A program made the translations under genes and the position numbers. From a virus (Duplodnaviria; Caudoviricetes): a stretch of 64,000 bases of DNA. Below the pieces are notes generated by a model. The model worked only from the letters and a program-made list of their open reading frames with translations, was not told where the DNA came from and ran no database searches. The DNA is taken from positions 148,289-212,288 of IMG/VR virus record IMGVR_UViG_3300031466_000001; one strand, written 5' to 3'. Of this stretch, positions 2,378-29,276 are shown piece after piece; position 1 is the stretch's first letter, and each line of letters starts with the position of its first letter.

Positions 2378-2386
2378 ATAAAGGAA

Positions 2387-2445: not shown

Positions 2446-2621
2446 GTACATTTACGTAATAAAAAAAAGTATAACTATATTTTTCATTTTATTTTTTAAT
2501 AAGAAAGGGGAGGTTGAAAATGAAAAAATAATTATTTAGTCCCCCTATAATAAATAATTATTCCATGTAGCCCCCAGATTACCCTCGGGAGGTGCAGGAA
2601 TTAAAGTACATGTAATAATGA

Positions 2622-2978
2622 TTGAAGCCTATGGACATGTACAGAGAGAAAAAAATGTCGGAGGGGAGCGCGAGTGTTATGGTCGATCCATCAACTGTCG
2701 GGGGCTGGGCTGAACTCATCGACAAGTATGGTTTTGTCTTAATTTTTGCAATCGTAAGTGGTGTGATCAACCTTTATTTTGTAACTCAAATTATACGAGG
2801 AAAACTTGTTCCTTATAGTATCCATAAGAGAAGTCTAGAGGAAGCTGATAGACTTCAAAAATCCATGGAAAAAGAACGTGCTCAGTACATGTCTAAATTG
2901 TTAGAATTTATGGGCGGACTTAAGCCTCATAAGGGGGACCCAAACAATGATGGAAAATATAGTGAGAGGTCAAAATGA
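2622..2978 (+). CDS. single-TM membrane protein with coiled-coil C-terminus (lysis-cassette accessory)
   Basis: Hydrophobic FVLIFAIVSGVINLYFV segment; first gene of an overlapping operon that ends in the holin. True start may be downstream. Confidence 0.6.
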   Translation: MKPMDMYREKKMSEGSASVMVDPSTVGGWAELIDKYGFVLIFAIVSGVINLYFVTQIIRGKLVPYSIHKRSLEEADRLQKSMEKERAQYMSKLLEFMGGLKPHKGDPNNDGKYSERSK

Positions 2979-3165
2979 AAGTTTTCTCACTAGACTTCTA
3001 CTTAAATTCTCACCAGGACTGGCTAGGGAGAAACAAAAGGTAGATAGTATGTGTCATAAATCAGATATTATCATTAAGCAGTATTCTGAATTGAGTAAAG
3101 AAATTAGAGACGAGGTTGATAGAAACCACTTTTCGACATTGCTCAATTACGAAAAGAGAGCATAG
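2947..3165 (+). CDS. small hypothetical protein in lysis cassette
   Basis: 72-aa ORF overlapping the previous gene, AAGGGG RBS. Confidence 0.55.
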   Translation: MMENIVRGQNESFLTRLLLKFSPGLAREKQKVDSMCHKSDIIIKQYSELSKEIRDEVDRNHFSTLLNYEKRA

Positions 3166-3973: not shown

Positions 3974-4999
3974 TTGGCAAATTATAAAGCAAAAGTTGCT
4001 TGGGATGCCGGACATCTTGAAGATACCTTCGAGGTGGAAGGTGGAAAAGGCGTTATTGTCAATGGTGAAAAATTTGAAGAACATTGGTTCAATCTTGCAG
4101 TAGCTAAGAAAGCTGCCGAACTTGGCAAATATAATGGTATTGAACCGGTGTTAACACATGAAGCTCTTGCTGGTAAATCTAAAGATAATCTAACGACTCG
4201 CACCAATAAAGCTAAATCTGAGAAAGTTGACCTCTTGTTCAGTATTCACGCTGATGCCAGCGGTAACGCAAATGCTAAAGGTCACTGGGTCTTCTACTGG
4301 CACGCTGATACCAAAGCCAAAAAGTTAGCTGAAATTTGGGATAAGTGGGCTGACAAACTTCTTCCCAATAACGACAGAAATACCGTAGCTTGTTCTCCTA
4401 ATTCGTGGGCAAACTTCCACATGTGTCGTGTTCCCGCTTCCTACGGTATTCCTGCAATCCTTATTGAACATGCATTTATGACAAACCTTGAAGATCTTGC
4501 TTATCTTAAAAGTGAGGAATTTCGTGATCTCTGTGCTGAAGCTGCAGTTCGTGCTGCTTGTGAGTATCTTGGTATTCCTTTTAGTAAACCTCCTGCATCT
4601 GCACCTACGAAACCTTTTGAAAAAGATCCGAGTGTCAAGTTCATTGACGTCCCCAAAGGTCATTGGGCAGTAAACGCTATCAAACTGGTTTCGGATGAAA
4701 GTATTATTAATGGTTTCACTGACGGGCGCTTCGGTATTGGTGAAGATGTGACCCGTGAACAACTGGCAGTTGTCATCTGCAATTTGATCACTAGTAGAAA
4801 GGTTAAGGTGATTAACATGGGTAAACCCACCAAATTCACGGATGTCCCCGACAATCACTGGGCAAAAACTTCTATTGACGTTGTAAGTGCTGCTGGTATC
4901 ATGGAGGGTTATCCCGACGGCCGTTTCGGTCTCGGCAATACCGTGAAACGCGAAGAACTTGCTGTGGTTGTTTCGAGACTTATTGATACTAAAAAATAA
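3974..4999 (+). CDS. endolysin: N-acetylmuramoyl-L-alanine amidase (Amidase_3) with two C-terminal SLH domains
   Basis: DAGH, E..N, SIHADA and PAILIEH zinc-amidase motifs; two FxDVPxxHWA...IxxGxxDGRFG...TREELAVV SLH repeats. Confidence 0.92.
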   Translation: MANYKAKVAWDAGHLEDTFEVEGGKGVIVNGEKFEEHWFNLAVAKKAAELGKYNGIEPVLTHEALAGKSKDNLTTRTNKAKSEKVDLLFSIHADASGNANAKGHWVFYWHADTKAKKLAEIWDKWADKLLPNNDRNTVACSPNSWANFHMCRVPASYGIPAILIEHAFMTNLEDLAYLKSEEFRDLCAEAAVRAACEYLGIPFSKPPASAPTKPFEKDPSVKFIDVPKGHWAVNAIKLVSDESIINGFTDGRFGIGEDVTREQLAVVICNLITSRKVKVINMGKPTKFTDVPDNHWAKTSIDVVSAAGIMEGYPDGRFGLGNTVKREELAVVVSRLIDTKK

Positions 5000-8963: not shown

Positions 8964-11117
8964 ATGAGCAGTAAAAACATTCAGATTCGTCACAAGAATG
9001 GTAGTGAATGGGATAATTTATACCCAAAAACAAAAGCGGAATTAGTAGAAGGTCTTGATGAGCAACTTGCCGGAAAGGTTGATAAAGAAGAAGGTAAAGG
9101 TCTTTCTACTGAAGATTATACTACAGAAGAAAAGAATAAACTTGCGGGCATTGAGGAAGGAGCCAACAAATACGTTCATCCAACTAGTGCTGGTAATAAA
9201 CATATTCCTTCTGGCGGTGCGCCTAACCAGGTACTTAAATATGGCGGTTCGTCAGGAACCGCAACATGGGGTGCTCTGACATCTGCAGATATTCCTACAT
9301 TGGCTCTTAGTAAGATTTCCGATGCAGGTACAGCAGCTTCCAGAGATATCGGTACTTCTGCTGGTAATGTGCCTGTATTGGATAGCAATGGTAAACTTGA
9401 TGTTAATGTCCTTCCTGCAATTGCTATTTCGGATACTTTCGTTGTCGGAAGCGAAGGAGAAATGCTGGGTCTTACTGCGGAAGTTGGTGATATCGCGGTA
9501 CGATCGGATATCAACAAAACATTCATTTTGAGAGCAGAACCTGCATCCGTAGTTGGCAACTGGCAAGAACTTTTGACTCCGACTTCCCCTGTACAATCTG
9601 TTGCAGGTAAAACCGGTGCAGTTACACTGGTTAAAGGTGACGTGGGACTCGGAAACGTCCAAAACTATGGAATAGCAACACAGGAAGAAGCAGAAGCCGG
9701 AACGTCCGATACCGCGTACATGACGCCGCTTAAAACAGCGCAGGCGATTGCTGCACTTGCACCCGCGCCGGATGCTTCGGAAGTTTCGCTTAGTTCACCG
9801 AATTTCACTTCTACCAACGTCCGGGATGGAATGGATGAACTTTTTCAATCTGTCAGTGATGGGAAAAATCAGATCGCTTCCGCCATCACTGACATGGGAC
9901 AGTCTGCTTCAGGAGGCGACACGTTTGCGCAGTTGTCAAGCAAAATTCGGGACATCTCCAAGGACGCGAACGCGGCTGTTGGGGATGTTTTGACCGGTAA
10001 GACGTTTTATCAGGGCGGAGTAAAGCGCACCGGCACGATGCCCAATAACGGATCGGTTTCCCAAACGCTGACATCACAAGGCGAAGAATACACGATCCCG
10101 GAGGGATACCACGACGGCACCGGCACGGTCACGACCGACATCGTGAATCTGTCCGCAGGAAATATCCGAGCCGGTGCGACGGTAGGCGGCGTTGATGGTA
10201 CGTTCACTAGCGACGCGACAGCCACGGCTGGTCAAATCTTGTCTGGCCGGACGGCGTATGTTAACGGCTCGAAGGTAACCGGCAGCATGATCAACAATGG
10301 AGCCGTCAGTCAAACCTTGACCACGCAGGGGGCGTCGTACACAATCCCGGCAGGTTATCACAATGGCAGCGGCACAGTCACGGCCAATATCACCAACTTG
10401 ACGGCGGCCAATATCAAGGCTGGTACGACGGTCGGCGGCGTATCTGGAACATTCACAAGCGACGCAACCGCAACAGCCGCACAAATCTTGTCTGGCCGGA
10501 CGGCGTATGTTAACGGCTCGAAGGTAACCGGCACGATGCCAGTCAAAACAAATGATTATGGCGCACCGCGTACAGGCCAAACTGGGCGTCTGTATGTGAC
10601 ACCGGAAGCAGGATACCATGACGGGACTGTAAGGGTCTATACGGACGACGCTAATTTTAATGCTGCCAATATCAAGTCTGGGGTTACGCTGTTCGGAATA
10701 ACCGGTACGTATGCGCCGATTTCCGTAGGTAGTACAACCCTGACATTTAACCGATCCGGCTCCGGTAACAATGTTACGTCGATTATCTATTATGCGAATT
10801 ACACGCCGCCCAAGACAAACTTTTTGGGGTCGTTCCAAATACCCGTTACGTTCACAATCGGGAACATTGAATATAAAGGAGACCCGTTTAACAGCATCAC
10901 GATCGGATATCCGACAAACCTAATCTTCGGCTATGGTTTGTACATTGTCGACCCGACCGTTAATGCAGAAATACAAATCAGCGCCATTTATAATAGTAGC
11001 ACTGGCCGTATTCAACTACAGATTGGTAACCCGTCCACAGCAAGTCCTAAAGCGTTGTTTACCAATATCAGCACCAATAGCTTTACAGCGGGTTTACGGT
11101 ATGTTTCATGGGAGTGA
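8964..11117 (+). CDS. chimeric tail fibre protein (phage N-terminus + GC-rich acquired C-terminus)
   Basis: LYPKT N-terminus, GKGLSTEDYTTEEKNKLAGIEEGAN, SVAGKTGAVTL, DATATAxQILSGRTAYVNGSKVTG and YTIPxGYHxGxG repeats; abrupt GC rise after about 9650. Confidence 0.85.
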   Translation: MSSKNIQIRHKNGSEWDNLYPKTKAELVEGLDEQLAGKVDKEEGKGLSTEDYTTEEKNKLAGIEEGANKYVHPTSAGNKHIPSGGAPNQVLKYGGSSGTATWGALTSADIPTLALSKISDAGTAASRDIGTSAGNVPVLDSNGKLDVNVLPAIAISDTFVVGSEGEMLGLTAEVGDIAVRSDINKTFILRAEPASVVGNWQELLTPTSPVQSVAGKTGAVTLVKGDVGLGNVQNYGIATQEEAEAGTSDTAYMTPLKTAQAIAALAPAPDASEVSLSSPNFTSTNVRDGMDELFQSVSDGKNQIASAITDMGQSASGGDTFAQLSSKIRDISKDANAAVGDVLTGKTFYQGGVKRTGTMPNNGSVSQTLTSQGEEYTIPEGYHDGTGTVTTDIVNLSAGNIRAGATVGGVDGTFTSDATATAGQILSGRTAYVNGSKVTGSMINNGAVSQTLTTQGASYTIPAGYHNGSGTVTANITNLTAANIKAGTTVGGVSGTFTSDATATAAQILSGRTAYVNGSKVTGTMPVKTNDYGAPRTGQTGRLYVTPEAGYHDGTVRVYTDDANFNAANIKSGVTLFGITGTYAPISVGSTTLTFNRSGSGNNVTSIIYYANYTPPKTNFLGSFQIPVTFTIGNIEYKGDPFNSITIGYPTNLIFGYGLYIVDPTVNAEIQISAIYNSSTGRIQLQIGNPSTASPKALFTNISTNSFTAGLRYVSWE
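9569..9643 (+). repeat. 75-bp perfect direct repeat, copy 1 (copy 2 at 11601..11675)
   Basis: ACTTTTGACTCCGACTTCCCCTGTACAATC...GGTTAAAGGTGACGT is identical at both sites, 2032 bp apart. Confidence 0.95.
10233..10533 (+). repeat. internal 249-bp (83-aa) tandem duplication with 52-bp identical cores
   Basis: CAAATCTTGTCTGGCCGGACGGCGTATGTTAACGGCTCGAAGGTAACCGGCA at 10233 and 10482. Confidence 0.9.
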
Positions 11118-11167
11118 AATCGTGATGACGAGAGAGGACTCATTATACAGATCGCATCGGCGGCCAA

Positions 11168-11212
11168 GCCGAGCAATATAAACAAATCACCGGATTTGAT
11201 TATGAAGCGTAA
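11168..11212 (+). pseudogene. 3-prime remnant of an XkdX-like gene (1)
   Basis: AEQYKQITGFDYEA* with no in-frame start (TGA at 11126); followed by a GC hairpin at 11212-11236. Confidence 0.6.
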
Positions 11213-11269
11213 GGCTCCGCCGAATAGGCGGGGCCTCATAATCTGCACAGTGTGGTACAATTAGACGCT

Positions 11270-11320
11270 ATGACGGCAGAAGAATATGAGCAGATTACGA
11301 GCGAGCCGTACACACCCTAA
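11270..11320 (+). pseudogene. 3-prime remnant of an XkdX-like gene (2)
   Basis: MTAEEYEQITSEPYTP* matches the XkdX C-terminal ITxEEYxxITGxxY pattern. Confidence 0.6.
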
Positions 11321-11342
11321 TTAGGCGCAGAGACGTGTAATT

Positions 11343-11369
11343 AGACCCTGCTTAATGCGGGGTCTTTTT
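11343..11369 (+). terminator. intrinsic terminator inside the cassette
   Basis: AGACCCTGC-TTAAT-GCGGGGTCT followed by TTTT. Confidence 0.75.
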
Positions 11370-11517
11370 GTTGACTTCGTAGTGACAAAAGGGAAATTTT
11401 ATACGATAATAGTGTTAAAGTACTCGTAAAGTACGATTACGTTACCGTCGCTGGAAGGGGTGGAAAAGTTCCGATGGACTTTACGAGCCTTGGAGAGTAC
11501 GGCGTAGGAATCGCGTC

Positions 11518-12195
11518 ATGACTTCTCCCGATGGTATAAACTGGACGATTCGTTCAACTCCGGCGGATAACAACTGGTATTCCGTCACTTATGGCAACGG
11601 ACTTTTGACTCCGACTTCCCCTGTACAATCTGTTGCAGGTAAAACCGGTGCAGTTACACTGGTTAAAGGTGACGTTGGTCTTGATAATGTTGAAAACTAC
11701 GGTATCGCTTCTCAAGCTGATGCTGAAGCCGGAACAGCAAATAATAAATACATGACCCCTGCGAGAGTTAAGCAAGCAATTGATGCGTTTGCTGCTCCTA
11801 AAGAGCATCAACATGTCGCTTCGGATATCACTCAAGATTCGACTCACCGTTTTGTAACTGATGCAGAAAAAGCTGCATGGAATGCAAAAGCAGACAAAAC
11901 GGTAGCTACTACCAGCAATAACGGCTTGATGTCGTCCGCTGATAAAGCAAAACTCGATGGAATCGAAGCTGGCGCCAATAAGTACGTACATCCGACTGGC
12001 GATGGTAATCTCCATGTGCCTCCAACTGGAACCAGCAACAACAATAAAGTGCTGAAAGCAGGGGCTACTGCTGGAAGCCTTTCCTGGGGTTATGTTAATT
12101 GGAATGAAGTAGATGGTAAACCTGTTAACCTTGCATCTATTGTGGTTTCTGGTACTGAACCTACAAATGCTGATTTCTGGTATCAGGAAATTTAA
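11518..12195 (+). CDS. displaced original C-terminal half of the tail fibre, fused to a foreign SPDGINWT repeat fragment
   Basis: From 11602 it continues the 8964 reading frame across the direct repeat (DNVENYGIAS...HRFVTDAEK...DKAKLDGIEAGANKYVHP...EPTNADFWYQEI); the first 28 aa are a foreign propeller-repeat remnant. Confidence 0.7.
   Translation: MTSPDGINWTIRSTPADNNWYSVTYGNGLLTPTSPVQSVAGKTGAVTLVKGDVGLDNVENYGIASQADAEAGTANNKYMTPARVKQAIDAFAAPKEHQHVASDITQDSTHRFVTDAEKAAWNAKADKTVATTSNNGLMSSADKAKLDGIEAGANKYVHPTGDGNLHVPPTGTSNNNKVLKAGATAGSLSWGYVNWNEVDGKPVNLASIVVSGTEPTNADFWYQEI
11601..11675 (+). repeat. 75-bp perfect direct repeat, copy 2
   Basis: Identical to 9569..9643. Confidence 0.95.
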
Positions 12196-12412
12196 TTTAA
12201 TCTATTTGTGAATAGTCTATAAATTAAATGAAAAAACACTTTTTGGGGTCGGATGGATTAAAAAGTCCATCCGACCGCCAAGTTTCTATTATAATATAGA
12301 CAGACAACTATATTTACCAAAATTTAAATGGAAAACAAAAATGTAATAAATATTTATTCTATCTGTATTTATAAGGAGAATTAACAAAATATAAAGAACG
12401 GAGGTATTTTAA

Positions 12413-13162
12413 ATGGCAAAAAATATACTACAGAAACAATACGTACCTGGTGTCGGATGGGTTGAGCTTCATCCAATTACTAAAGCGTCCAATATTATAG
12501 ATTCAAACGGTCTTAGTGTACAAGAGCATATTGATGCTAAAAATCCACATGGAACTGATAAAAGTGATGTAGGTCTTGGTAATGTTGAAAACTATGGTAT
12601 TGCATCTAAAACTGAAGCCGAAGCCGGAACTGCAAGTAACAAGTACATGACACCACAAAGAACTTCCCAGGCAATTGCAGCTTTGTCGCCTGTGAAGTCG
12701 GTTGCTGGTAAGACGGGTGCAGTGACTCTCGTAAAGGGAGATGTAGGTCTCGGAAACGTTGAGAACTATGGCATTGCATCTAAAACTGAAGCCGAAGAGG
12801 GAACTGCAAGTAATAAGTATATGACTCCTGAGAGAACATCTCAGGCGATTGCTGTTCAAGCCCAGGCTATTGCAGATGAAGTTGAAAACAGATCAAAAGA
12901 GTATGCTGATCTGTTGATGGAACAGAAGATTATTGAAATTCCTTCTAGGTCAGGTAAAGACGAGAATGGAATTTTCACGATCGTTGAATATTACAGACCA
13001 AATAATACATTAGCACGAAAAACCGAACTTAGCGGTGGGTCGTCTCCGAATTATACAACAAGAACCATAACCTTCTATGCAGAAGACGGTATGACTGTGA
13101 CAAAAACAGTCACAAGAACCTTAATTTATGATGAGGATGGAGATTTCCTGCGAGAAGAATAA
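12413..13162 (+). CDS. tail fibre/adaptor protein
   Basis: LHPITKA N-terminus, two DVGLGNVENYGIASKTEAExGTASNKYMTP modules, late-type motif at 12334-12345. Confidence 0.75.
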   Translation: MAKNILQKQYVPGVGWVELHPITKASNIIDSNGLSVQEHIDAKNPHGTDKSDVGLGNVENYGIASKTEAEAGTASNKYMTPQRTSQAIAALSPVKSVAGKTGAVTLVKGDVGLGNVENYGIASKTEAEEGTASNKYMTPERTSQAIAVQAQAIADEVENRSKEYADLLMEQKIIEIPSRSGKDENGIFTIVEYYRPNNTLARKTELSGGSSPNYTTRTITFYAEDGMTVTKTVTRTLIYDEDGDFLREE

Positions 13163-13203
13163 AAATAAGGGATAAGGTATTTAACCTTATCCTTTATTTT
13201 TTT
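13161..13203 (+). terminator. intrinsic terminator
   Basis: AAAATAAGGGATAAGGT-ATTTA-ACCTTATCCTTTATTTT followed by a T-run. Confidence 0.75.
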
Positions 13204-13444: not shown

Positions 13445-15583
13445 GTGAAAGAAGTGAACGATTTAATTTATCATGGGTTAATTGGGAAAAAAATTGATTC
13501 TGTAGAGGTGCTAAATAATGAATTTATTGCTACAGATGACAATGTGGAGCTGGCTAGTTCATATAATTTACCTAATACTGGACGCTCTGTCTCATTCTCT
13601 CCCGATGGTCAATATATAGCTGTAGGACATAGTGGTTCTCCTTATTTTACTCTATTAAAAAGAAATGGAGATAATGTAAAACTAGCTAGTAATTATATAT
13701 TACCTAGTACTGGCTATGGTGTATCATTCTCTCCCGATGGTCAATATATAGCTGTAGCACATACTGCTTCTCCTAATTTTACTTTACTAAAAAGAAATGG
13801 AGATAATGTAGAATTAGCTAGTACTTATACATTACCTGGCAATGGAAACTCTGTATCATTCTCTCCTGATGGTCAATATATAGCTGTAGGATATGATCTT
13901 TCTCCTCGTTTTACTTTACTAAAAAGAAATGGAGATAATGTAGAATTAGCTAGTAATTATATATTACCTGGTATTGGACGTTCTGTCTCATTCTCTCCCG
14001 ATGGTCAATATATAGCTGTAGGGCATTATGCTTCTCCTTATTTTACTCTATTAAAAAGAAATGGAGATACTGTAGAACTAGCTAGTACTTATACATTACC
14101 TAGTGATGGCTTAGGTGTATCATTCTCTCCTGATGGTCAATATATAGCTGTAGCACATAATGGTTCTCCTTATTTTACTTTACTAAAAAGAAATGGAGAT
14201 AATGTAGAATTAGCTAGTACTTATACACTATCTAACTATGGCTTTGGTGTATCATTCTCTCCCGATGGTCAATATATAGCTGTAGGATATTATGGTTCTC
14301 CTTATTTTACTTTACTAAAAAGAAATGGAGATAATGTAGAATTAGCTAGTACTTATACATTACCTGGCAATGGCACGGGTGTATCATTCTCTCCCGATGG
14401 TCAATATATAGCTGTAGGACATTTTAGTTCTCCTTATTTTACTCTATTAAAAAGAAATGGAGTACAAGAAGCCATCGAAATTAAAACTAAAGTAAATGTT
14501 ATTAAAGAAATTGATGGTCAGTTAAAAGAGGTTAAAAGTAATAAGATATTTAGAGATGTAAAAGAATTAGTTTATAAGAATAATTATGAAAAAGTACTAC
14601 TAGCTGATACTTATACATTACCCAATATCGCCACGGGTGTATCATTTTCTCCCGATGGTCAATATATAGCTGTAGGACATTATGATTCTCCTTATTTTAC
14701 TTTACTAAAAAGAAATGGAGATAATGTAGAATTAGCTAGTAATTATACATTAACTGGTAATGCTGGAGGTGTATCATTCTCTCCTGATGGTAAATATATA
14801 GCTGTAGCATATTATGGTTCTCCTTATTTTACTCTATTAAAAAGAAATGGAGATAATGTAGAACTAGCTAGTACTTATACATTACCTAGTTATGGCCATG
14901 GTGTATTATTCTCTCCCGATGGTCAATATATAGCTGTAGCACATTGGGGTTCTCCTCATTTTACTTTACTAAAAAGAAATGGAGATAATGTAGAACTAGC
15001 TAGTAATTATACATTACCTGATATTGGCTTGAGAGTATCATTCTCTCCCGATGGTCAATATATAGCTGTAGGACATTATGGTTCTCCTTATTTTACTCTA
15101 TTAAAAAGAAATGGAGATACTGTAGAACTAGCTAGTACTTATACATTACCTGGTGCTACCGAAAATGTATCATTCTCTCCCGATGGTCAATATATAGCTG
15201 TAGGATATTATGGTTCTCCTTATTTTACTCTATTAAAAAGAAATGGGGATACTGTAGAATTAGCTAGTAATTATACATTACCTAATATTGGATACTCTGC
15301 CCCATTCTCTCCCGATGGTCAATATATAGCTGTAGCACATAATGGTTCTCCTTATTTTACTTTACTAAAAAGAAATGGAGATAATGTAGAATTAGCTAGT
15401 ACTTATACATTACCTGGTGATGGCTATAGTGTATCATTCTCTCCTGATGGTCAATATATAGCTGTAGGACATAATGGTTCTCCTTATTTTACTTTACTAA
15501 AAGCAGGAGGAACTTTTTCAAAAACCCCTCCAATCTTTATTGAATATAGAGGTAAAAGATATAAGATGCGTACAATTAATTGA
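13445..15583 (+). CDS. double 7-bladed WD40-like beta-propeller protein A (putative receptor-binding protein)
   Basis: 14 copies (7 + linker + 7) of a 44-aa unit DNVELASTYTLPxxxxxVSFSPDGQYIAVxxxxSPxFTLLKRNG; in the tail-fibre module; late-type motif at 13295-13306. Confidence 0.85.
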   Translation: MKEVNDLIYHGLIGKKIDSVEVLNNEFIATDDNVELASSYNLPNTGRSVSFSPDGQYIAVGHSGSPYFTLLKRNGDNVKLASNYILPSTGYGVSFSPDGQYIAVAHTASPNFTLLKRNGDNVELASTYTLPGNGNSVSFSPDGQYIAVGYDLSPRFTLLKRNGDNVELASNYILPGIGRSVSFSPDGQYIAVGHYASPYFTLLKRNGDTVELASTYTLPSDGLGVSFSPDGQYIAVAHNGSPYFTLLKRNGDNVELASTYTLSNYGFGVSFSPDGQYIAVGYYGSPYFTLLKRNGDNVELASTYTLPGNGTGVSFSPDGQYIAVGHFSSPYFTLLKRNGVQEAIEIKTKVNVIKEIDGQLKEVKSNKIFRDVKELVYKNNYEKVLLADTYTLPNIATGVSFSPDGQYIAVGHYDSPYFTLLKRNGDNVELASNYTLTGNAGGVSFSPDGKYIAVAYYGSPYFTLLKRNGDNVELASTYTLPSYGHGVLFSPDGQYIAVAHWGSPHFTLLKRNGDNVELASNYTLPDIGLRVSFSPDGQYIAVGHYGSPYFTLLKRNGDTVELASTYTLPGATENVSFSPDGQYIAVGYYGSPYFTLLKRNGDTVELASNYTLPNIGYSAPFSPDGQYIAVAHNGSPYFTLLKRNGDNVELASTYTLPGDGYSVSFSPDGQYIAVGHNGSPYFTLLKAGGTFSKTPPIFIEYRGKRYKMRTIN
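13538..15502 (+). repeat. array of 14 near-identical 132-bp repeats
   Basis: TCATTCTCTCC(C/T)GATGGTCAATATATAGCTGTAG and AAAAGAAATGGAGATAATGTAGAA recur every 132 bp, interrupted once by a linker. Confidence 0.97.
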
Positions 15584-15879
15584 TATGGGGATTTAAAATA
15601 AAAGATTTATATTTACATGAAATAATAAAAAGACATGCTTCAGCAAAAATACTAAAAAAAAATAAATTCAATTATACTGATGATGGACTAAATCTTATAA
15701 GATCATATATTTCATCATATATTGTATATGATGTGTCATTTCCCCCTTTGGTCAATTTATTCACGGTTCGTGACACGCTTTTCACCTTATTAAAGGCTAG
15801 TGATATATTTAAATCAAACCCCTTCCCAACTATTGTCGAATGTAGAGGGAGAAAATATAGAGTTAGGGAAAAATCTTAA
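15580..15879 (+). CDS. collapsed/degenerate paralog of the propeller proteins (N- and C-caps with one decayed repeat)
   Basis: DLYLHEIIKRH...KILKKNKFNYTDD matches EELYFHELLRQ...NILNNKFIATDD; FTLLKA...TIVECRGRKYRV matches FTLLKA...IFIEYRGKRYKM. Confidence 0.65.
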   Translation: MIWGFKIKDLYLHEIIKRHASAKILKKNKFNYTDDGLNLIRSYISSYIVYDVSFPPLVNLFTVRDTLFTLLKASDIFKSNPFPTIVECRGRKYRVREKS

Positions 15880-15896
15880 TAAAGGAGGTAAGTAAT

Positions 15897-18020
15897 TTGG
15901 AAGAGCTTTATTTTCACGAATTGCTACGACAAGGCGTTTCAGTAAATATTCTAAATAATAAATTTATTGCTACAGATGACAATGTGGAGCCGGCTAGTTC
16001 ATATAAATTGCCTAACTATGGCTATAGTGTTTCATTCTCTCCCGATGGTCAATATATAGCTGTAGGACATGTTGGTTCTCCTCGTTTTACTTTACTAAAA
16101 AGAAATGGAGATAATGTAGAATTAGCTAGTACTTATACATTATCCGATACTGGACGCTCTATCTCATTCTCTCCCGATGGTCAATATATAGCTATAGGAC
16201 ATAGCGGTTCTCCTGGTTTTACTTTACTAAAAAGAAATGGAGATAATGTAGAACTAGCTACTAAATATACATTACCTGATGTTGGATATGGTACGGCATT
16301 CTCTCCCGATGGTCAATATATAGCTGTGGGACATAATGGTTCTCCTTATTTTACTCTATTAAAAAGAAATGGAGATAATGTAGAACTAGCTAGTACTTAT
16401 ACATTATCCGCTACTGGACGTTCTGTCTCATTCTCTCCCGATGGTCAATATATAGCTGTAGCACATGCTGGTTCTCCTCGTTTTACTTTACTAAAAAGAA
16501 ATGGAGATAATGTAGAACTAGCTAGTACTTATACATTACCTAGTGATAGCTTTGATGCATCATTCTCTCCTGATGGTCAATATATAGCTGTAGCACATTA
16601 TGTTTCTCCTCATTTTACTCTATTAAAAAGAAATGGAGATAATGTAGAACTAGCTAGTACTTATACATTACCTAGTACTGGCTTGGGTGTATCATTCTCT
16701 CCCGATGGTCGATATATAGCTGTAGCACATTATGGTTCTCCTTATTTTACTTTACTAAAAAGAAATGGAGATAATGTAGAACTAGCTAGTACTTATACAT
16801 TACCTAGTGTCGCCATGGATGTATCATTCTCTCCCGATGGTCAATATATAGCTGTAGGATATATTAATTCTCCTCCTTATTTTACTCTATTAAAAAGAAA
16901 TGGAGTACAAGAAGCCATCGAAATTAAAACTAAAGTAAATGTTATTAAAGAAATTGATGGTCAGTTAGAAGAGGTTAAAGGTAATAAGATATTTAGAGAT
17001 GTAAAAGAATTAGTTTATAAGAATAATTATGAAAAAGTATTACTAGCTAGTACTTATACATTACCTTTTACTAGCTTGGATGTATCATTCTCTCCCGATG
17101 GTCAATATATAGCTGTAGAACATAATAGTTCTCCTTATTTTACTTTACTAAAAAGAAATGGAGATAATGTAGAACTAGCTAGTACTTATACATTACCTGG
17201 TGGTGCCGAAGGTATATCATTCTCTCCCGATGGCAAATATATAGCTGTAGCACATTATGGTTCTCCTTATTTTACTTTACTAAAAAGAAATGGAGATAAT
17301 GTAGAATTAGCTAGTACTTATACATTATCTGACGGTGGCTATGGTGTATCATTCTCTCCCGATGGTCAATATATAGCTGTAGGACATCATGGTTCTCCTT
17401 ATTTTACTCTATTAAAAAGAAATGGAGATAATGTAGAACTAGCTAGTAATTATACATTACCTAGTAATGGCTTGGGTGTATCATTTTCTCCCGATGGTCA
17501 ATATATAGCTGTAGGATATAATGGTTTTCCTTATTTTACTTTACTAAAAAGAAATGGAGATAATGTAGAATTAGCTAGTACTTATACATTACCTGGTACT
17601 AGCTATGGTGTATCATTCTCTCCCGATGGTCAATATATAGCAGTGGGACATTTTGGTTCTCCTTATTTTACTCTATTAAAAAGAAATGGAGATAATGTAG
17701 AATTAGCTAGTACTTATACATTACCTGGTAATGCCGAAGATGTATCATTCTCTCCCGATGGTCAATATATAGCTGTAGGACATTGGGGTTCTCCTTGTTT
17801 TACTCTATTAAAAAGAAATGGAGATAATGTAGAACTAGCTAGTAATTATACATTACCTGGTACTAGCTATGGTGTATCATTCTCTCCCGATGGTCAATAT
17901 ATAGCAGTGGGACATAGCGATTCTCCTTATTTTACCCTATTAAAAGCAGGAGGAACTTTTTCATCACAAAATCCTATTATTATAAAATATAGAGATGTCG
18001 AATACGAACTTGTGTGGTAA
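15897..18020 (+). CDS. double 7-bladed WD40-like beta-propeller protein B (putative receptor-binding protein)
   Basis: Same 14-repeat architecture and near-identical inter-propeller linker as protein A; AAGGAGG RBS, TTG start. Confidence 0.85.
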   Translation: MEELYFHELLRQGVSVNILNNKFIATDDNVEPASSYKLPNYGYSVSFSPDGQYIAVGHVGSPRFTLLKRNGDNVELASTYTLSDTGRSISFSPDGQYIAIGHSGSPGFTLLKRNGDNVELATKYTLPDVGYGTAFSPDGQYIAVGHNGSPYFTLLKRNGDNVELASTYTLSATGRSVSFSPDGQYIAVAHAGSPRFTLLKRNGDNVELASTYTLPSDSFDASFSPDGQYIAVAHYVSPHFTLLKRNGDNVELASTYTLPSTGLGVSFSPDGRYIAVAHYGSPYFTLLKRNGDNVELASTYTLPSVAMDVSFSPDGQYIAVGYINSPPYFTLLKRNGVQEAIEIKTKVNVIKEIDGQLEEVKGNKIFRDVKELVYKNNYEKVLLASTYTLPFTSLDVSFSPDGQYIAVEHNSSPYFTLLKRNGDNVELASTYTLPGGAEGISFSPDGKYIAVAHYGSPYFTLLKRNGDNVELASTYTLSDGGYGVSFSPDGQYIAVGHHGSPYFTLLKRNGDNVELASNYTLPSNGLGVSFSPDGQYIAVGYNGFPYFTLLKRNGDNVELASTYTLPGTSYGVSFSPDGQYIAVGHFGSPYFTLLKRNGDNVELASTYTLPGNAEDVSFSPDGQYIAVGHWGSPCFTLLKRNGDNVELASNYTLPGTSYGVSFSPDGQYIAVGHSDSPYFTLLKAGGTFSSQNPIIIKYRDVEYELVW
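15978..17945 (+). repeat. array of 14 near-identical 132-bp repeats
   Basis: As in gene A; repeat 7 carries a one-codon insertion (SPPYF). Confidence 0.97.
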
Positions 18021-18097
18021 AAAAATACTACATCTACATTTTAATAAATAAATTATAAAAAAACATCTATTAAAATCTAAATGGGAGGTATACATTT

Positions 18098-18397
18098 ATG
18101 CCAATCGTAAGTGGTGAACAAATCGCCCCTGATAAAATCCGGGTGAGGTCGATAACTTATACAACGAACACTCCACCGAACGACAATTGGTATTCGGTTC
18201 CATCAGTACCCGAATGGCCAGAGGTTGAAATCGGGAAGCGACCTGAGATGTATTTTAATCCACAGACAAAGGAGTTCAGCTTTGAGATTGTTGATGCTCC
18301 TTTGACTCCGGAACAAGAAAAAGATCTCGAAATTCAACGTCTGAACCAGCTTCTTGACGATGCTACAAGCTTATTATTAGAAAACGAGGTGTTGTAA
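18098..18397 (+). CDS. tail-fibre accessory/chaperone-like protein
   Basis: PEWPEVEIGKRPEMYFNPQTKEFSFE...PLTPEQE coiled-coil pattern typical of small genes after Bacillota phage fibres; GGGAGG RBS. Confidence 0.65.
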   Translation: MPIVSGEQIAPDKIRVRSITYTTNTPPNDNWYSVPSVPEWPEVEIGKRPEMYFNPQTKEFSFEIVDAPLTPEQEKDLEIQRLNQLLDDATSLLLENEVL

Positions 18398-18398
18398 T

Positions 18399-18530
18399 AT
18401 GAGCGGAATTGATCAAAGAAAGCTTAATCTTTACAAGTGGATGCTGGAAAAGGGTAAAATTCAGTACAACGAAATTCCAGAGAATTATCGTAGCCAGATC
18501 AATCCTCCGCAGGAACAGTCTGAGGAGTAA
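18399..18530 (+). CDS. small tail-associated protein (CD1375/XkdX-like, 43 aa)
   Basis: Manual ORF MSGIDQRKLNLYKWMLEKGKIQYNEIPENYRSQI..., GAGGTG RBS, ends just before the terminator. Confidence 0.65.
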   Translation: MSGIDQRKLNLYKWMLEKGKIQYNEIPENYRSQINPPQEQSEE

Positions 18531-18606: not shown

Positions 18607-20736
18607 TTATTTCCTCTTGCTCTTCAGAGACATAATCGGCATACTGCGTAATTTGAAACTCTTGACAGCCTGCTCCATAAAATACTCTTGGACATTGAAT
18701 GGAACAGGACTTTTCAAAAGTTCGTACTGATTGTCTTTATTGAGAATGTAGGTGTTGAATGTGTCGCGGAAATACATTTTCAAAATAGACAAGAGTTTAT
18801 TTCTGGAATTTTCGTCCGTAATCGGAACCAGAAGTTCAACCCGTCTGTCCAAATTCCGCGTCAACATATCAGCACTTGAAATGAAAATATCTGACTTTCC
18901 ATTATTGTAGAAGAAGTAAATTCTACTATGCTCTAGAAATCTACCAACAACACTCTTGATGCTGATGTTCGAATTGATTTTCTTCATCGAGCATATACCT
19001 CTACAGATAATGGATATCTTGACACCCTGCTCAGAGGCCTCATACAGCTTCTTGATAATACCCAGATCAGAAAGGGAGTTAAGCTTCAACGTAATGAAAG
19101 CTTGTCTACCCTTTTGAGCATTCTCGATCTCTCGATCGATAAGCTGATACAATCTCAATCTCAGATTGTACGGAGCATAGAAAATTTTGCTCACTTCGTC
19201 TCTGGGATCGGAGAAACCTGACAAGACATTAAATATCGTCAACAGGTCATCCGCTATTTTGCTGCTGGATGTGAAGTAGGAAATATCGGTATAGATTGAC
19301 GCAGTCTTGTCGTTGTAATTTCCTGTACCGATATGGCAATACGTTTTGAGATTTTTCTTTCCTTTCCTCACAACCAATATAAATTTACAATGTGTTTTCA
19401 ACTCCTCAATACCATAGATCAATTTACAGCCGGATACTTTTAGTTTTTCTATCAACGACATATTTCTATTCTCATCAAACCTTGCTTTAATTTCGAGAAG
19501 AACACTTACCTGCTTTCCTCTTTCAGCAGCCCTACACAACGCCTCGACAATCGGGGACTCCGCAGAAGATACTCTATACAGAGTCAATTTGATTGCCAAG
19601 ACATCATTATCCTCGGCCGCATGTTCGAGGAATTTGATAACCGGTGTGAACGACTCGTAAGGGTGATGAAGAATGAGATCGCCGTTGTCGATAGCAGTAA
19701 ACATATCGTGCTCGCCGATCAGATCTTCTGGATACTGAGGGTTGAACGGGTCGTACTCGTAAGCCGCATTTCTTATCGGCTTACTTAAGAGAAACGACAT
19801 GTCTACGATGTTTTCACATTTAAACACTTGCCTCTTGTCAATGTCGAAGATTTTGGTCAGAAGTTTGAGGGTTTCCTTAGGAACATCACTGTCGATATCC
19901 ATGAAGATGGGTTTACTAAACTCCCGTTTAATGAGAGTTTCCCTCATTCGGTCGACAATATAAATATCCCGTCTTCCCTCAATTTCAATATCCGCCTCAC
20001 GAATGATTCTCATACATCCCCTATAGATGATACTCTTGTTGATAAATACCTTGTGGAGAAAATTAAAGATAATATCCTCCAACAAGATATATCGTTCTTC
20101 ATCGCTCTCGTCAGTCTCAATCTTGTACAAACGATCAAGACCATGGAGTGGGATGATGGACATTACATTCAGATTTGGATTTTTCTTGTCCCCTAGAGAA
20201 GCTATTATGCATAGCTGCTTAGATTTAATAAGGGGAAATTCTTTGGTTGAGTCAAAGGTGATCGGGGTCAGCAACGGATAAATGTTTCTTTCGAAAAGCT
20301 TTCTTACATAATCAACTTCCTTTTCACTGAGATGCTTGAACTTACAAATCGTGAAATTGTTTTTACGCAGTTTCTTTCTCAGTTTTTCAAAGCTTTCTTG
20401 CTGGATTTCTTTGAAAGAAATAATTTCCCGGAGCAAGAGTTCATATTCTTGCTCCGGGAGAAGACCAGCAATATCCGTTTCTGTATACCCCAATCTGAGT
20501 TTATTAAGGATAGATGAAAATCTAACCATAATAAACTCATCCAGGTTCGATTCCGTGATACCCAAGAACTTAAGTCTCTCCAAAAGAGGAACCTCAGTTC
20601 TCATAGTTTGATGGAGAACCCTTTTATTGAACTCCATCCAACTCAATTCACGATTCATATAGAATCCTGGATTATTAAACTTTGACCTAATCCTATCTCT
20701 TTCAACGTCGAAGAGATCACTAAGATTGTTAGTCAT
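18607..20736 (-). CDS. ppk1: polyphosphate kinase 1
   Basis: NRELSWxxFNxRVL, NLDEFxMVR, LHHPYESF (autophosphorylated His), ELKARFDE-like, HIGTGNYN, GRFLEHSRI, SADMLTRNLDRRVE; full length, 709 aa. Confidence 0.95.
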   Translation of the reverse strand: MTNNLSDLFDVERDRIRSKFNNPGFYMNRELSWMEFNKRVLHQTMRTEVPLLERLKFLGITESNLDEFIMVRFSSILNKLRLGYTETDIAGLLPEQEYELLLREIISFKEIQQESFEKLRKKLRKNNFTICKFKHLSEKEVDYVRKLFERNIYPLLTPITFDSTKEFPLIKSKQLCIIASLGDKKNPNLNVMSIIPLHGLDRLYKIETDESDEERYILLEDIIFNFLHKVFINKSIIYRGCMRIIREADIEIEGRRDIYIVDRMRETLIKREFSKPIFMDIDSDVPKETLKLLTKIFDIDKRQVFKCENIVDMSFLLSKPIRNAAYEYDPFNPQYPEDLIGEHDMFTAIDNGDLILHHPYESFTPVIKFLEHAAEDNDVLAIKLTLYRVSSAESPIVEALCRAAERGKQVSVLLEIKARFDENRNMSLIEKLKVSGCKLIYGIEELKTHCKFILVVRKGKKNLKTYCHIGTGNYNDKTASIYTDISYFTSSSKIADDLLTIFNVLSGFSDPRDEVSKIFYAPYNLRLRLYQLIDREIENAQKGRQAFITLKLNSLSDLGIIKKLYEASEQGVKISIICRGICSMKKINSNISIKSVVGRFLEHSRIYFFYNNGKSDIFISSADMLTRNLDRRVELLVPITDENSRNKLLSILKMYFRDTFNTYILNKDNQYELLKSPVPFNVQEYFMEQAVKSFKLRSMPIMSLKSKRK

Positions 20737-27860: not shown

Positions 27861-29276
27861 TCAAATATTATTGAACTCGTAAAGACCAATCAATTGGTCT
27901 TTAAGAAGATTGAATTCATTGTTAAACAACCCGTCGTTCCTAGAAATGAACATATTAAGTCTCGGATTAAATGCCCTGAACGCCTTTTTCAGTTCTTTCG
28001 TTTTCAGTGACACAATATTGAGAACGTCACCATCGAAGTCCGCGTTCAAGACAGTGAGAACTTGAATCGGAATCGACATGGTATAATCCTCTTCGTGTGC
28101 ACGTTTAATGTCAATAACTTTCATACAGAGTACCGATCCATAGTTAATGGTTGGATTCCGGTTAATGATCATAGCCGGTTTCCATTTCTTAACGATGTAC
28201 ATCATCACTTCATAGATCTTAGGGTCGAAGTTTATTGTTGCCTTATACCATTCCTCATATGCTTCGTTATGAGTAATTCTCTCCATTTTGGCCAGAAGAG
28301 CAATTATCTCATATTTGTACAATTCGAGGAACGTTAAATACCCCAGACGAATTTCATCTGCTCTCAAAGTTGGATCGGGGATAACAACGTTTCTTGCAGA
28401 AAAGTTGATTCGACCACCAAGAAGCTGATACCTGATATGCCCATCTTTTTGGTTAACTTGATTGAATACAAGTTGCCAAAGTTCATTAACTTTCTTTTGA
28501 ATTACAGACAAGGTTACAGCTTCTCCGAGTTTTTCTTTCTTTTTCCTCTGACGAGTCGTCAGGAGAGACTCATCATGAAGAAGTCTACTTAATGCAAAGA
28601 TCGTTTCATATTTTCTATCAAAGCTACTAAAGAAGAAGTTTTCACCTCTAAACGAGACCGGTCGAAGAACCGACGAGTATACCGGGATACAAGATGCAAA
28701 AACTTTGTCCTTATCCCTCATAATCTCATCGAAAAGTTCCGTTTGTTTATTCTTCTTCTTTTCGTAGAAATAATCCATAATCTCTTCGAATCTTTCACGA
28801 AACTCGATCAACCCAATACCTTTAAATGGACTTTTTCCTTTCTTGCTAATAATTTCACCATCTCTGGTGATTTCTTTGTCGTATTCAATGATTTCACTGA
28901 AAGCTTTATCGCCAATGGCGACTTTAAGCATTCTATAGAACAACGGTTGAATAATAGCATAATCGCCGAGTTTAATCCAACCGGTAACTTTCATATTCAC
29001 GTCACGAAAGATTACTTTATGTCCACAAATTTTACATACCTCGCCTTCGTATACACGACCTTTAAGTTCCTTACATCTACAGCTATATCTTTCCGAGAAT
29101 GCATCTTCGTCTTCCCAATCGGTCGCAAACCTAGGCGATTGAATACCATTGAATGATTTTTCTTCTTTATTTTTTATGAATGCGTAATCCGTAACTTCAA
29201 AACCGTTTCCGGTAATAAAACTAATTTCACATTGTTCATCCCAACTAATTTTCTTCAATTGTACAGTTTTACCCAT
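27861..29276 (-). CDS. phage multisubunit RNA polymerase beta-prime N-terminal subunit (catalytic; probably non-virion RNAP)
   Basis: CxC...CxxC zinc finger, LLGGRINFSARNVV, INRNPT, catalytic NADFDGD; early motif at 29353-29362. Confidence 0.92.
   Translation of the reverse strand: MGKTVQLKKISWDEQCEISFITGNGFEVTDYAFIKNKEEKSFNGIQSPRFATDWEDEDAFSERYSCRCKELKGRVYEGEVCKICGHKVIFRDVNMKVTGWIKLGDYAIIQPLFYRMLKVAIGDKAFSEIIEYDKEITRDGEIISKKGKSPFKGIGLIEFRERFEEIMDYFYEKKKNKQTELFDEIMRDKDKVFASCIPVYSSVLRPVSFRGENFFFSSFDRKYETIFALSRLLHDESLLTTRQRKKKEKLGEAVTLSVIQKKVNELWQLVFNQVNQKDGHIRYQLLGGRINFSARNVVIPDPTLRADEIRLGYLTFLELYKYEIIALLAKMERITHNEAYEEWYKATINFDPKIYEVMMYIVKKWKPAMIINRNPTINYGSVLCMKVIDIKRAHEEDYTMSIPIQVLTVLNADFDGDVLNIVSLKTKELKKAFRAFNPRLNMFISRNDGLFNNEFNLLKDQLIGLYEFNNI

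What the first reader, a model, noticed from the sequence alone, without database searches (positions are those of the whole stretch)
13445..18020. Hypervariable beta-propeller repeat arrays: a candidate RT-independent receptor-diversification system in the phage tail module
Seen: two tandem genes each have 14 (7+7) copies of a 132-bp unit. The scaffold is almost invariant even at synonymous sites, yet nearly every copy differs at the same two short patches: the five residues after YTL(P/S/T) and the 3-4 residues after YIAV plus the residue after SP (e.g. PNTGRS/PSTGYG/PGNGNS/PDIGLR/PGATEN/PFTSLD; HSG/HTA/YDL/HWG/YIN/HHG; Y/N/R/H/G/C). Repeats 12 and 14 of gene B share a private tract including the synonymous GCAGTG variant, a footprint of intragenic conversion. 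Repeat 9 carries the same Q>K change in both genes and the linkers are nearly identical, pointing to whole-gene duplication. Established: in WD40 propellers these positions correspond to the D-A and B-C loops of the top binding face, and homogenised repeats with diversified top-face codons characterise Podospora HET-E/HET-D (HNWD) immune receptors. Inference: 28 interchangeable blades form a combinatorial library reshuffled by recombination, giving variable host-receptor-binding surfaces.
Basis: partly seen in the sequence, partly recalled or inferred. Interest (0 to 1): 0.88.

Follow-up and report, generated by a model that had tools for sequence, protein, structure and literature searches.

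The report
Strain-variable repeat propeller genes in phage
A giant phage carries two neighbouring genes, each built from 14 near-identical repeats that fold into two seven-bladed rings; only the loops on one face of each ring vary, and these loops differ completely between otherwise 99%-identical phages, which points to a recombination-driven, fast-changing binding surface, probably for host attachment.

Summary

- **Architecture.** Genes A (13445-15583) and B (15897-18020) each hold 7+7 copies of a 132-bp blade.
- **Where the variation sits.** It is confined to codons 11-16 and to codons 28-31 plus 34 of the blade. On an AlphaFold model these are the D-A and B-C loops, which lie on one face.
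- **Family.** The blades are WD40-type. The closest solved relative is the Nostoc WRAP propeller 2ymu.
- **Selection.** Variable codons give omega about 1.8-2.0; scaffold codons give 0.25-0.4.
- **Concerted evolution.** Blades and linker are homogenised between A and B (linker 96-100% identical) while the gene ends have diverged (62-68%).
- **Strain-level turnover.** In other samples the same phage is 99.2-99.7% identical over about 12 kb next to gene B, yet it carries completely different gene-B loops. Divergence stops exactly at the last blade.
- **Horizontal exchange.** The window's gene B is 2123/2124 nt identical in an otherwise unrelated 207-kb phage.
- **Short-tract reassortment.** Identical 21-nt loop cassettes recur with different partners.
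- **No DGR.** No reverse transcriptase or template repeat was found.

This is HNWD-like concerted evolution plus diversifying selection and inter-phage recombination.

A receptor-binding role is inferred only from fibre/adhesin neighbours and from fusions to tail proteins. It was not tested.

The parts
13445..15583 (+). Gene A: N-cap (33 aa), 7 blades, 42-aa linker, 7 blades, C-cap; 712 aa (P0001)
   Evidence: ORF, translation, blade register. Pfam WD40/PD40/beta-propeller hits. AF2 model: two 7-blade propellers with pLDDT >90.
13544..14467 (+). Gene A blades 1-7 (132 bp each)
14468..14593 (+). Gene A inter-propeller linker, homogenised with the linkers of all A and B alleles
   Evidence: 128-132 of 132 nt identical across nine genes; low pLDDT in the model.
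14594..15517 (+). Gene A blades 8-14
15580..15879 (+). orf99a: collapsed paralog with N-cap, one decayed blade and C-cap (P0123); overlaps the stop of gene A
   Evidence: BLASTP against gene B: 2e-8 (N-cap + blade) and 9e-5 (blade + C-cap); alignments. It is 100% identical in the unrelated phage G001.
15897..18020 (+). Gene B: same architecture as A, 707 aa (P0002); one-codon insertion in blade 7
   Evidence: It is 2123/2124 nt identical to L001 4851-6974.
15984..16910 (+). Gene B blades 1-7
16911..17036 (+). Gene B linker
17037..17960 (+). Gene B blades 8-14; in near-identical phage genomes from other samples, the 3-5 terminal blades of this half that were assembled all carry different loop patches
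18098..18397 (+). orf99b: small ORF of unknown function that travels with the cassette
   Evidence: 97% identical in G001 and 97.7-98.7% in L012-L014; only weak PHROG hits to families of unknown function.
13170..13192 (+). Hairpin plus T-run after the upstream fibre-like gene; gene A starts a new unit
8964..13162 (+). Context: three tail-fibre-like ORFs (8964-11117, 11518-12195, 12413-13162)
   Evidence: PHROG tail fibre / minor tail / virion structural families, E 1e-16 to 1e-48.

Best explanation
Genes A and B encode double seven-bladed WD40/WRAP-type propellers. Their blades evolve in concert while two loops per blade, both on the same face, are kept maximally diverse.

Shown:
1. Blades and linker are homogenised within and between the two genes.
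2. The D-A and B-C loop codons carry an excess of non-synonymous change.
3. Arrays differ completely between phage genomes that are about 99% identical alongside, with the break exactly at the array edge.
4. The same array occurs in an unrelated jumbo phage.
5. Short loop cassettes are reassorted.

Inferred mechanism. The near-identical scaffold, linker and caps act as homology arms. Ordinary homologous recombination (gene conversion within and between the paralogs, and exchange between co-infecting phages) moves blades and loop patches around. Point mutation supplies new patches, and selection favours novel binding faces. No reverse transcriptase is involved.

Inferred function. The variable face is a ligand-binding surface, and the proteins are host-adhesion or receptor-binding modules of the phage fibre apparatus. 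The host is probably an S-layer-bearing Gram-positive bacterium.
For: **Fold and family**
- The AF2 model has mean pLDDT 84.9 and shows two 7-blade propellers.
- The best PDB match is 2ymu, the Nostoc WRAP: Foldseek 6e-35, phmmer 1.4e-69.
- Patch 1 is the D-A loop plus the start of strand A. Patch 2 is the B-C loop. The conserved SPDGQ and NGD motifs are the A-B and C-D loops on the opposite face.

**Selection**
- NG86: variable codons omega 1.8 (bootstrap 1.47-2.30), scaffold 0.25; pN(variable)/pS(scaffold) = 2.5.
- Tree-based counts: omega 2.0, p = 2.5e-8. Codons 12, 28, 30, 31 and 34 are individually significant.

**Concerted evolution**
- Linkers are 128-132/132 identical across all A and B alleles. 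A-versus-B N-caps are 67/99 and C-caps 52/84.

**Strain-level turnover**
- L012, L013 and L014 carry an identical PPK protein.
- They are 99.2-99.7% identical to the window over about 12 kb and 97-100% identical in the C-cap.
- Their gene-B blades are only 86-95% identical, and all their loop patches differ.
- gA versus 8A: flanks are 96-98% identical and caps pS is 0.017, but in-register variable-codon pN is 0.32.
- Variable sites carry no positional signal between alleles (p 0.15-0.8).

**Exchange between phages**
- The cassette at window 13455-18481 aligns with L001 at 94.75%, and gene B is 2123/2124 identical.
- Across 33 kb of the rest of the window, the only DNA match to that phage was 580 bp at 66%.

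**Reassortment**
- Identical 21-nt patch-1 cassettes (GTSYG x5, STGLG x3, STGYG x3) sit with different patch-2 sequences and scaffold haplotypes.
- 16 of 28 four-gamete incompatibilities.

**Function**
- Fibre-like genes lie upstream in the window.
- Neighbours or fusion partners in relatives include YadA-head, LamG, F5/8C and cadherin-like domains.
- Blades 67% identical are fused to a beta-helix in a gene between the tape-measure and Dit/Tal genes.
- The same blade family shows the same variable positions in proteins fused to Ig, fn3 and LamG domains.
Against: - No direct evidence places the proteins in the virion or shows that they bind anything.
- They have no recognised fibre-anchoring domain; the N-cap is only 33 aa and is modelled with low confidence.
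- Several variable codons (11, 13, 14, 15, 16) show omega near 1, so part of the variability may be relaxed constraint.
- The dN/dS estimates ignore recombination and treat paralogous blades as a population.
- All comparison sequences are metagenome assemblies. Repeat order, and the short variants (4-blade B in L007, 6-blade A/B hybrid in L012), could be assembly collapses. Seven of ten contigs of this phage break at or inside the array.
- In-situ turnover cannot be separated from import of alleles from other phages.
Confidence: 0.6

Rival explanations
1. The evolutionary dynamics are the same, but the proteins are not virion receptor-binders. They act inside the infected cell as variable binders of host proteins, for example as decoys or inhibitors of host immune sensors. 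The arms race is then with host defence, not host surface.
For: The closest solved and sequence relatives are sensor propellers of bacterial STAND/NLR-like proteins (2ymu WRAP, cyanobacterial AAA/NB-ARC-WD40 proteins). The top face of WD40 domains typically binds proteins or peptides (PMC1805685). The genes have no recognisable fibre-anchor domain, and they form a separate transcription unit after a terminator.
Against: In four independent phage contexts the genes sit beside or are fused to adhesin or fibre domains: YadA head, LamG, F5/8C, cadherin-like and beta-helix, the last inside a tail module. A PHROG annotated 'virion structural protein' shares the blades.
Confidence: 0.17
2. This is an ordinary recently amplified propeller. 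The loops are simply unconstrained and drift, the scaffold is similar because amplification was recent, and the differences between samples are assembly artefacts. There is no diversification process of biological note.
For: Highly repetitive propellers are common in all kingdoms, including viruses (PMC9218822). About half of the variable codons have omega near 1. Short-read assemblies break at or collapse the array.
Against: Non-synonymous divergence at variable codons is 2.5 times the synonymous divergence of the scaffold, and pooled omega is 2. The linker is identical between paralogs whose ends are 62-68% identical, which needs ongoing conversion rather than recency. Gene B was assembled identically (2123/2124 nt) in two different genomes. 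The divergence boundary between strains coincides with the last blade to within one blade. The allele-specific patches are real sequences that assembly cannot invent.
Confidence: 0.12
3. A dedicated mutagenic mechanism (a diversity-generating retroelement or another targeted hypermutator) writes the variable codons.
For: Variation is concentrated in first and second codon positions of short patches. Synonymous divergence is also higher in the patches than in the scaffold (0.25 against 0.15).
Against: There is no RVT_1 in two complete relatives that carry the arrays. No RT was found among the window ORFs of 250 aa or more. The 64-kb window holds no extra blade copy that could serve as a template. 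Variable sites are not restricted to one base. Identical patch cassettes are shared between genomes, which indicates inheritance and exchange rather than de novo writing. Only 64 kb of the window's own genome could be examined.
Confidence: 0.03

Closest known systems
Podospora anserina HNWD / HET-D, HET-E WD-repeat domains (Paoletti, Saupe & Clave 2007, PMC1805685; Chevanne 2010, PMC2873952)
   Same: The WD40-type repeats are homogenised within and between paralogs. Diversifying selection acts on residue pairs in the d-a loop and the b-c turn, on the top face. Many distinct residue combinations occur (55 among 69 repeats there; 83 patch-1 peptides among 104 blades here). Repeats are reshuffled.
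   Different: There is no NACHT/HET domain and the genes are not NLRs. They are phage genes next to fibre genes. There is no RIP. The variable patches are larger (about 8-11 codons per blade against 4). Arrays have a fixed 7+7 layout with a conserved linker, and whole arrays move between unrelated phages.
WRAP, the WD40-family recently amplified propeller of Nostoc punctiforme Npun_R6612 (PDB 2ymu; PMC6805158, PMC9218822)
   Same: It is the best sequence and fold match (34% identity, 14 blades forming two 7-bladed propellers). The blades are near-identical, and its few variable residues align with patch 1 here.
   Different: WRAP is the C-terminal sensor of a STAND ATPase. It has almost no variation and no synonymous differences. 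The phage blades are 44 aa rather than 41, lack the GH and WD dipeptides, stand alone between short caps and are heavily diversified.
T-even phage gp38/gp37 adhesins with conserved glycine-rich motifs flanking hypervariable segments (recalled from memory, not checked here)
   Same: Both are phage host-recognition proteins. Short conserved motifs serve as recombination points that reshuffle hypervariable loops between phages, without a reverse transcriptase.
   Different: The fold is different. There is no tandem-repeat array, no concerted evolution and no paralog pair.
Diversity-generating retroelements (Bordetella phage BPP-1 Mtd)
   Same: In both, phage-encoded variation is confined to a few surface codons of a stable scaffold.
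   Different: DGRs need an RT, a template repeat and adenine-specific mutagenesis. None was found here.

Membership tests
WD40 / WRAP-type beta-propeller | Tandem blades of about 40-44 aa, each a four-stranded antiparallel sheet, closing into a ring | tested here: met
   The AF2 model shows four strands per 44-aa unit and two 7-blade domains with pLDDT >90. All 50 listed Foldseek hits are WD40-type double propellers, with 2ymu first.
WD40 / WRAP-type beta-propeller | Significant sequence similarity to WD40/WRAP repeats | tested here: met
   phmmer against 2ymu gives 1.4e-69 and WRAP-T designs reach 1e-50. Pfam WD40 7e-33 and PD40 5e-42.
WD40 / WRAP-type beta-propeller | GH and WD dipeptide signatures | tested here: not met
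   The blades read ..TLP.. and ..FTLLK.. where WRAP has GH and LWN. This is a divergent subfamily.
WRAP / bacterial NLR-like sensors | Propeller is the C-terminal sensor of a STAND NTPase | tested here: not met
   Pfam finds only propeller families in P0001 and P0002, with 33-aa and about 25-aa caps.
HNWD-type highly internally conserved repeats | Concerted evolution of repeats within and between paralogs | tested here: met
   Linker and scaffold are 92-100% identical between A and B, while N- and C-caps are 62-68% identical. Scaffold polymorphisms form a mosaic.
HNWD-type highly internally conserved repeats | Positive diversifying selection at d-a and b-c loop codons | tested here: met
   omega 1.8-2.0 pooled; codons 12, 28, 30, 31 and 34 are individually significant. 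Loop assignment. Compared with PMC1805685.
HNWD-type highly internally conserved repeats | Repeat-number polymorphism | tested here: inconclusive
   A 4-blade B in L007, a 6-blade A/B hybrid in L012 and one-blade relics (orf99a, L008 5125-5352) were seen. The first two come from short-read metagenome assemblies and may be collapses.
HNWD-type highly internally conserved repeats | N-terminal HET or other effector domain plus a NACHT NTPase | tested here: not met
   No such domains were found.
Diversity-generating retroelement target | Reverse transcriptase and template repeat near the variable repeat | tested here: not met
   No RVT_1 in G001 or G002, with positive controls ringing. None among window ORFs of 250 aa or more. 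No blade copy outside the genes in 64 kb. The rest of the window's genome is not available.
Phage receptor-binding / fibre protein | Encoded among tail-fibre or baseplate genes | tested here: met
   Fibre-like ORFs lie upstream in the window. Fibre, LamG and YadA neighbours occur in G001, G002 and L007. The homolog P0003 sits between the TMP and Dit/Tal genes.
Phage receptor-binding / fibre protein | Present in the virion and required for adsorption | not testable with these tools
   This needs proteomics, cryo-EM or genetics. The only hint is a PHROG labelled 'virion structural protein' that shares the blades.

The most novel reading that the evidence does not exclude
This would be a phage-borne counterpart of fungal HNWD immune-receptor repeats, and of bacterial antigenic-variation cassettes. 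A homogenised propeller scaffold serves as a built-in recombination substrate, so that loop patches, blades and whole arrays are swapped within a genome, between paralogs and between unrelated co-infecting jumbo phages. Near-clonal phage populations then carry different receptor-binding faces without any reverse transcriptase. The blade family with the same variable positions, fused to beta-helix, Ig, fn3 and LamG modules in other contigs, would make this a widespread and so far undescribed mode of host-range diversification.
Probability: 0.4. Interest if true: 0.82.

Novelty: new variant of a known kind. Interest (0 to 1): 0.66.

Why it matters
Three RT-independent routes to phage host-range change are well known: module swapping, invertible fibre segments and hypervariable segments in T-even adhesins. 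DGRs are the known targeted route.

Here a tandem-repeat propeller shows the same signature as fungal allorecognition receptors, namely concerted evolution plus diversifying selection on the binding-face loops. The natural allelic series is also unusually clean:
- complete loop turnover between phages 99% identical next door;
- a sharp boundary at the array edge;
- an identical array shared by unrelated phages.

If the proteins are receptor binders, this gives a tractable, sequence-readable model for three questions: how phages track variable host surfaces, how repeat scaffolds promote recombination, and how much strain-level host-range diversity short-read metagenomics hides, since most assemblies break at this locus. 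The consensus-like scaffold with defined variable positions is also a natural template for binder design.

Tried and rejected
- **Own genome.** No whole genome is held for the window. A 30-mer from the window's RNAP gene found no IMG/VR contig, so the rest of this phage could not be searched for an RT.
- **GenBank phages.** megablast of the region against GenBank phages found nothing. tblastn found only distant propellers at 25-35% identity.
- **DGR hypothesis.** Rejected.
- **Closed-library hypothesis.** The idea that arrays are reshuffles of a small fixed blade library was rejected. No blade is identical between alleles (minimum 5 of 120 nt), and there are 83 distinct patch-1 peptides among 104 blades.
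- **Whole-blade shuffling only.** Not sufficient, because scaffold sites keep a weak positional signal while variable sites keep none.
- **Crude omega count.** A hand count of distinct codons against distinct residues, from the table, gave omega about 1 for the variable codons. The pairwise and tree-based estimates are preferred, but the discrepancy is noted.
- **orf99a versus orf99b.** They are not paralogs of each other.
- **Promoter and terminator scan.** It added only the upstream terminator; most promoter-like hits are repeats of the blade sequence.
- **Literature.** Searches for phage or jumbo-phage WD40 repeat diversification found no description of this. The library is limited to open-access papers.
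- **Unused jobs.** No complex prediction was run, because no specific partner is proposed. The second structure job, the representative-protein search and the Atlas search were also not used.

Full report
**Setting**

The window is part of a jumbo phage. It encodes a split RNA-polymerase beta-prime fragment (27861-29276, minus strand) whose best matches are phiR1-37, Bacillus phage BpSp and other jumbo phages. It also encodes two AAA ATPases, a polyphosphate kinase 1 (18607-20736, minus strand) and an Amidase_3 + SLH endolysin (3974-4999). No genome is held for it.

Upstream of the finding lie three ORFs with PHROG tail-fibre, minor-tail or virion-structural hits (8964-11117, 11518-12195, 12413-13162). 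A hairpin terminator at 13170-13192 closes that unit.

**The observation**

TRF finds two arrays of period 132. Gene A (13445-15583, 712 aa) and gene B (15897-18020, 707 aa) share one layout:
- a short N-cap;
- seven 44-aa blades;
- a 42-aa linker;
- seven more blades;
- a C-cap of about 25 aa.

Aligning the 28 blades at the DNA level shows variation confined to codons 11-16 and to codons 28-31 plus 34.

The scaffold is not strictly invariant at synonymous sites. A handful of dimorphic sites (codons 3, 20, 37, 38 and others) are distributed as a mosaic, and 16 of 28 site pairs fail the four-gamete test.

**Fold and family**

An AlphaFold2 model built on an 11-sequence alignment (mean pLDDT 84.9) gives two seven-bladed propellers with pLDDT above 90. 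The termini and linker are disordered.

Within each blade the strands and loops map as follows:

| Element | Codons | Note |
|---|---|---|
| Strand A | 13-18 | start is variable (patch 1) |
| A-B loop | 19-23 | conserved SPDGQ |
| Strand B | 24-29 | |
| B-C loop | 30-33 | patch 2, with the first residue of strand C |
| Strand C | 34-41 | |
| C-D loop | 42-43 | part of the conserved NGD motif |
| Strand D | 44-8 | runs into the next unit |
| D-A loop | 9-12 | patch 1 |

In an antiparallel meander alternate loops lie on opposite faces. Both variable patches therefore share one face, the conventional WD40 'top'. I could not measure this on coordinates.

The best solved match is 2ymu, the Nostoc 'highly repetitive propeller' WRAP (Foldseek 6e-35, 34% identity; phmmer 1.4e-69). 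Its few variable residues align with patch 1.

Paoletti et al. (PMC1805685) place the HET-E selected codons in the same two loops.

**Selection**

| Method | Variable codons | Scaffold |
|---|---|---|
| Nei-Gojobori, pairwise | pN 0.39, pS 0.25, omega 1.8 (blade bootstrap 1.47-2.30) | pN 0.04, pS 0.15, omega 0.25 |
| Parsimony counts on a FastTree of 104 non-redundant blades from five genomes | 384 non-synonymous, 59 synonymous, omega 2.0, p = 2.5e-8 | omega 0.4 |

Codons 12, 28, 30, 31 and 34 are individually significant. Codons 11 and 13-16 change very often but at omega near 1.

Both methods ignore recombination, so the values are indicative. Non-synonymous divergence in the patches is 2.5 times the synonymous divergence of the scaffold.

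**Relatives and the natural allelic series**

A protein-guided scan and a scan for a 26-nt linker word found the same genes in several other records.

*G001* (IMG/VR 3300025530_000275, 207 kb)
- The 5-kb cassette is collinear with the window at 94.75%.
- The rest of that genome is essentially unalignable to the window: 580 bp at 66% in 33 kb tested.
- Gene B is 2123/2124 nt identical, and orf99a and the intergenic regions are 100% identical.
- Gene A differs at every loop patch, and its N-cap is only 73% identical.

*Further alleles from the linker scan*
- L008: a 210-kb ENA contig.
- L007: a 40-kb contig.
- L010: a 2.6-kb contig.

*Allele comparisons*
- Between G001 and L008 the flanks are 96-98% identical and the caps and linker have pS 0.017. 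In-register blades are as different as random blade pairs: variable-codon pN 0.32, scaffold pS 0.13.
- Window B against L010 behaves the same way.
- Permutation shows no positional signal at variable sites in any allele pair (p 0.15-0.8) and only a weak one at scaffold sites.

*Same-phage contigs*

The most direct test came from the neighbouring PPK gene. Ten contigs from independent samples encode the identical PPK protein. Three of them reach into gene B.
- They are 99.2-99.7% identical to the window across about 12 kb.
- Identity is 100%, 100% and 97% in the B C-cap.
- It drops to 86-95% in the blades. Every loop patch differs from the window, and there are at least three alleles.
- The boundary falls at the end of the last blade.

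**How the diversity is made**

The linker is 128-132/132 identical across all nine A and B genes. A-versus-B caps are 62-68% identical. So blades plus linker are continually homogenised between paralogs.

Identical 21-nt patch-1 cassettes, using the same codons, recur in different genes, positions and phages. They sit with different patch-2 sequences and scaffold haplotypes. This shows short-tract exchange with breakpoints in the conserved scaffold.

The pool is large. There are 83 distinct patch-1 and 60 distinct patch-2 peptides among 104 blades, and no blade is shared between alleles. Mutation must therefore feed it.

No RVT_1 is present in two complete relatives. No RT was found among the window's larger ORFs, and no extra blade copy lies in the 64 kb. 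Variable sites are not base-specific. A DGR is therefore very unlikely.

I conclude that homologous recombination, within a genome and between co-infecting phages, acts on a homogenised scaffold together with diversifying selection. I see no evidence for a dedicated mechanism.

**Array instability**

orf99a (15580-15879) is a collapsed paralog: N-cap, one decayed blade and C-cap. A second such relic follows gene B in L008.

L007 has a 4-blade B, and L012 has a 6-blade gene with the A N-cap and the B C-cap. These two could be real deletions by unequal recombination, or they could be assembly collapses.

Seven of the ten contigs of this phage end at or inside the array. This shows how poorly short reads handle the locus. 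In favour of assembly accuracy, gene B was assembled identically in two different genomes.

**Function**

Nothing here tests binding or virion location. The context is consistent across phages:
- fibre-like genes upstream in the window;
- a YadA-head protein upstream in G001;
- LamG and F5/8C fibre-like giants immediately upstream in G002, where the blades are old and diverged but the 7+7 layout and C-cap motif persist;
- a G001 gene with four cadherin-like domains followed by seven blades, and an L007 protein that combines a diverged propeller with a LamG-like domain;
- a protein whose blades are 67% identical to these, fused to a beta-helix and encoded between the tape-measure and Dit/Tal genes.

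The same blade family recurs in proteins fused to Ig, fn3 and LamG domains. Each has its own homogenised scaffold and the same variable positions.

I therefore favour a host-adhesion or receptor-binding role at about 55-60%. An intracellular binder or decoy role is the main alternative, because the nearest relatives are immune-sensor propellers.

**Comparison and novelty**

Recently amplified propellers are known in all kingdoms, including viruses (PMC9218822). The combination of concerted evolution and selection on top-face codons is known from fungal HNWD genes (PMC1805685).

What I did not find described is this pattern in phage genes. Nor did I find described strain-level allele turnover with a sharp array boundary, or exchange of whole arrays between unrelated jumbo phages. 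I class it as a new variant of a known kind.

The earlier scan notes on this genome flag the same stretch and the 'empty' paralog. I reached both independently and confirmed the latter.

Noticed in passing
window 15580-15879: This 99-aa ORF is a collapsed propeller gene (N-cap, one decayed blade, C-cap). It is 100% identical in the unrelated phage G001. A second one-blade relic follows gene B in L008 (5125-5352).
   Followed up: yes
window 18607-20736 (-): Full-length polyphosphate kinase 1 lies in the phage, convergent with the propeller cassette. Homologs at 60-77% identity sit on many 200-270-kb contigs, so PPK1 seems common in this jumbo-phage group. Named relatives come from compost and from Herbinix.
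   Followed up: partly
L012 (reverse complement) 2147-3103: In one 133-kb assembly of the same phage the two genes are replaced by a single 6-blade gene with the A N-cap and the B C-cap. This is either a 2.9-kb deletion by recombination between blades or an assembly collapse.
   Followed up: partly
L007 12552-13253: A gene-B allele has only four blades and no linker, too few for a closed seven-bladed ring. It is either real or an assembly collapse.
   Followed up: no
L003 7874-10945: The relative G001 has a third propeller gene: an N-terminal region, four cadherin-like domains and seven blades. It stops right after FTLLKAG and so lacks the C-cap. Sequence similar to the orf99a region follows it.
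   Followed up: partly
window 10001-12000: GC rises to 49% against about 33-35% elsewhere, inside and after the 717-aa fibre-like gene. Earlier scan notes call this a foreign fibre cassette; it was not examined here.
   Followed up: no
window 3974-4999: The endolysin has Amidase_3 plus two SLH domains, which implies a host with an S-layer or pyruvylated secondary cell-wall polymer.
   Followed up: no
window 30009-31001 vs L014: One contig of the same phage (L014) joins window 30009 directly to 31001. This is a roughly 1-kb presence/absence difference between strains.
   Followed up: no
P0017 (614 aa): A homolog has the same blade type and variable positions, followed by fn3-like repeats and a C-terminal hydrophobic anchor with a basic tail. 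The family therefore also occurs in cell-surface proteins of cellular organisms.
   Followed up: no
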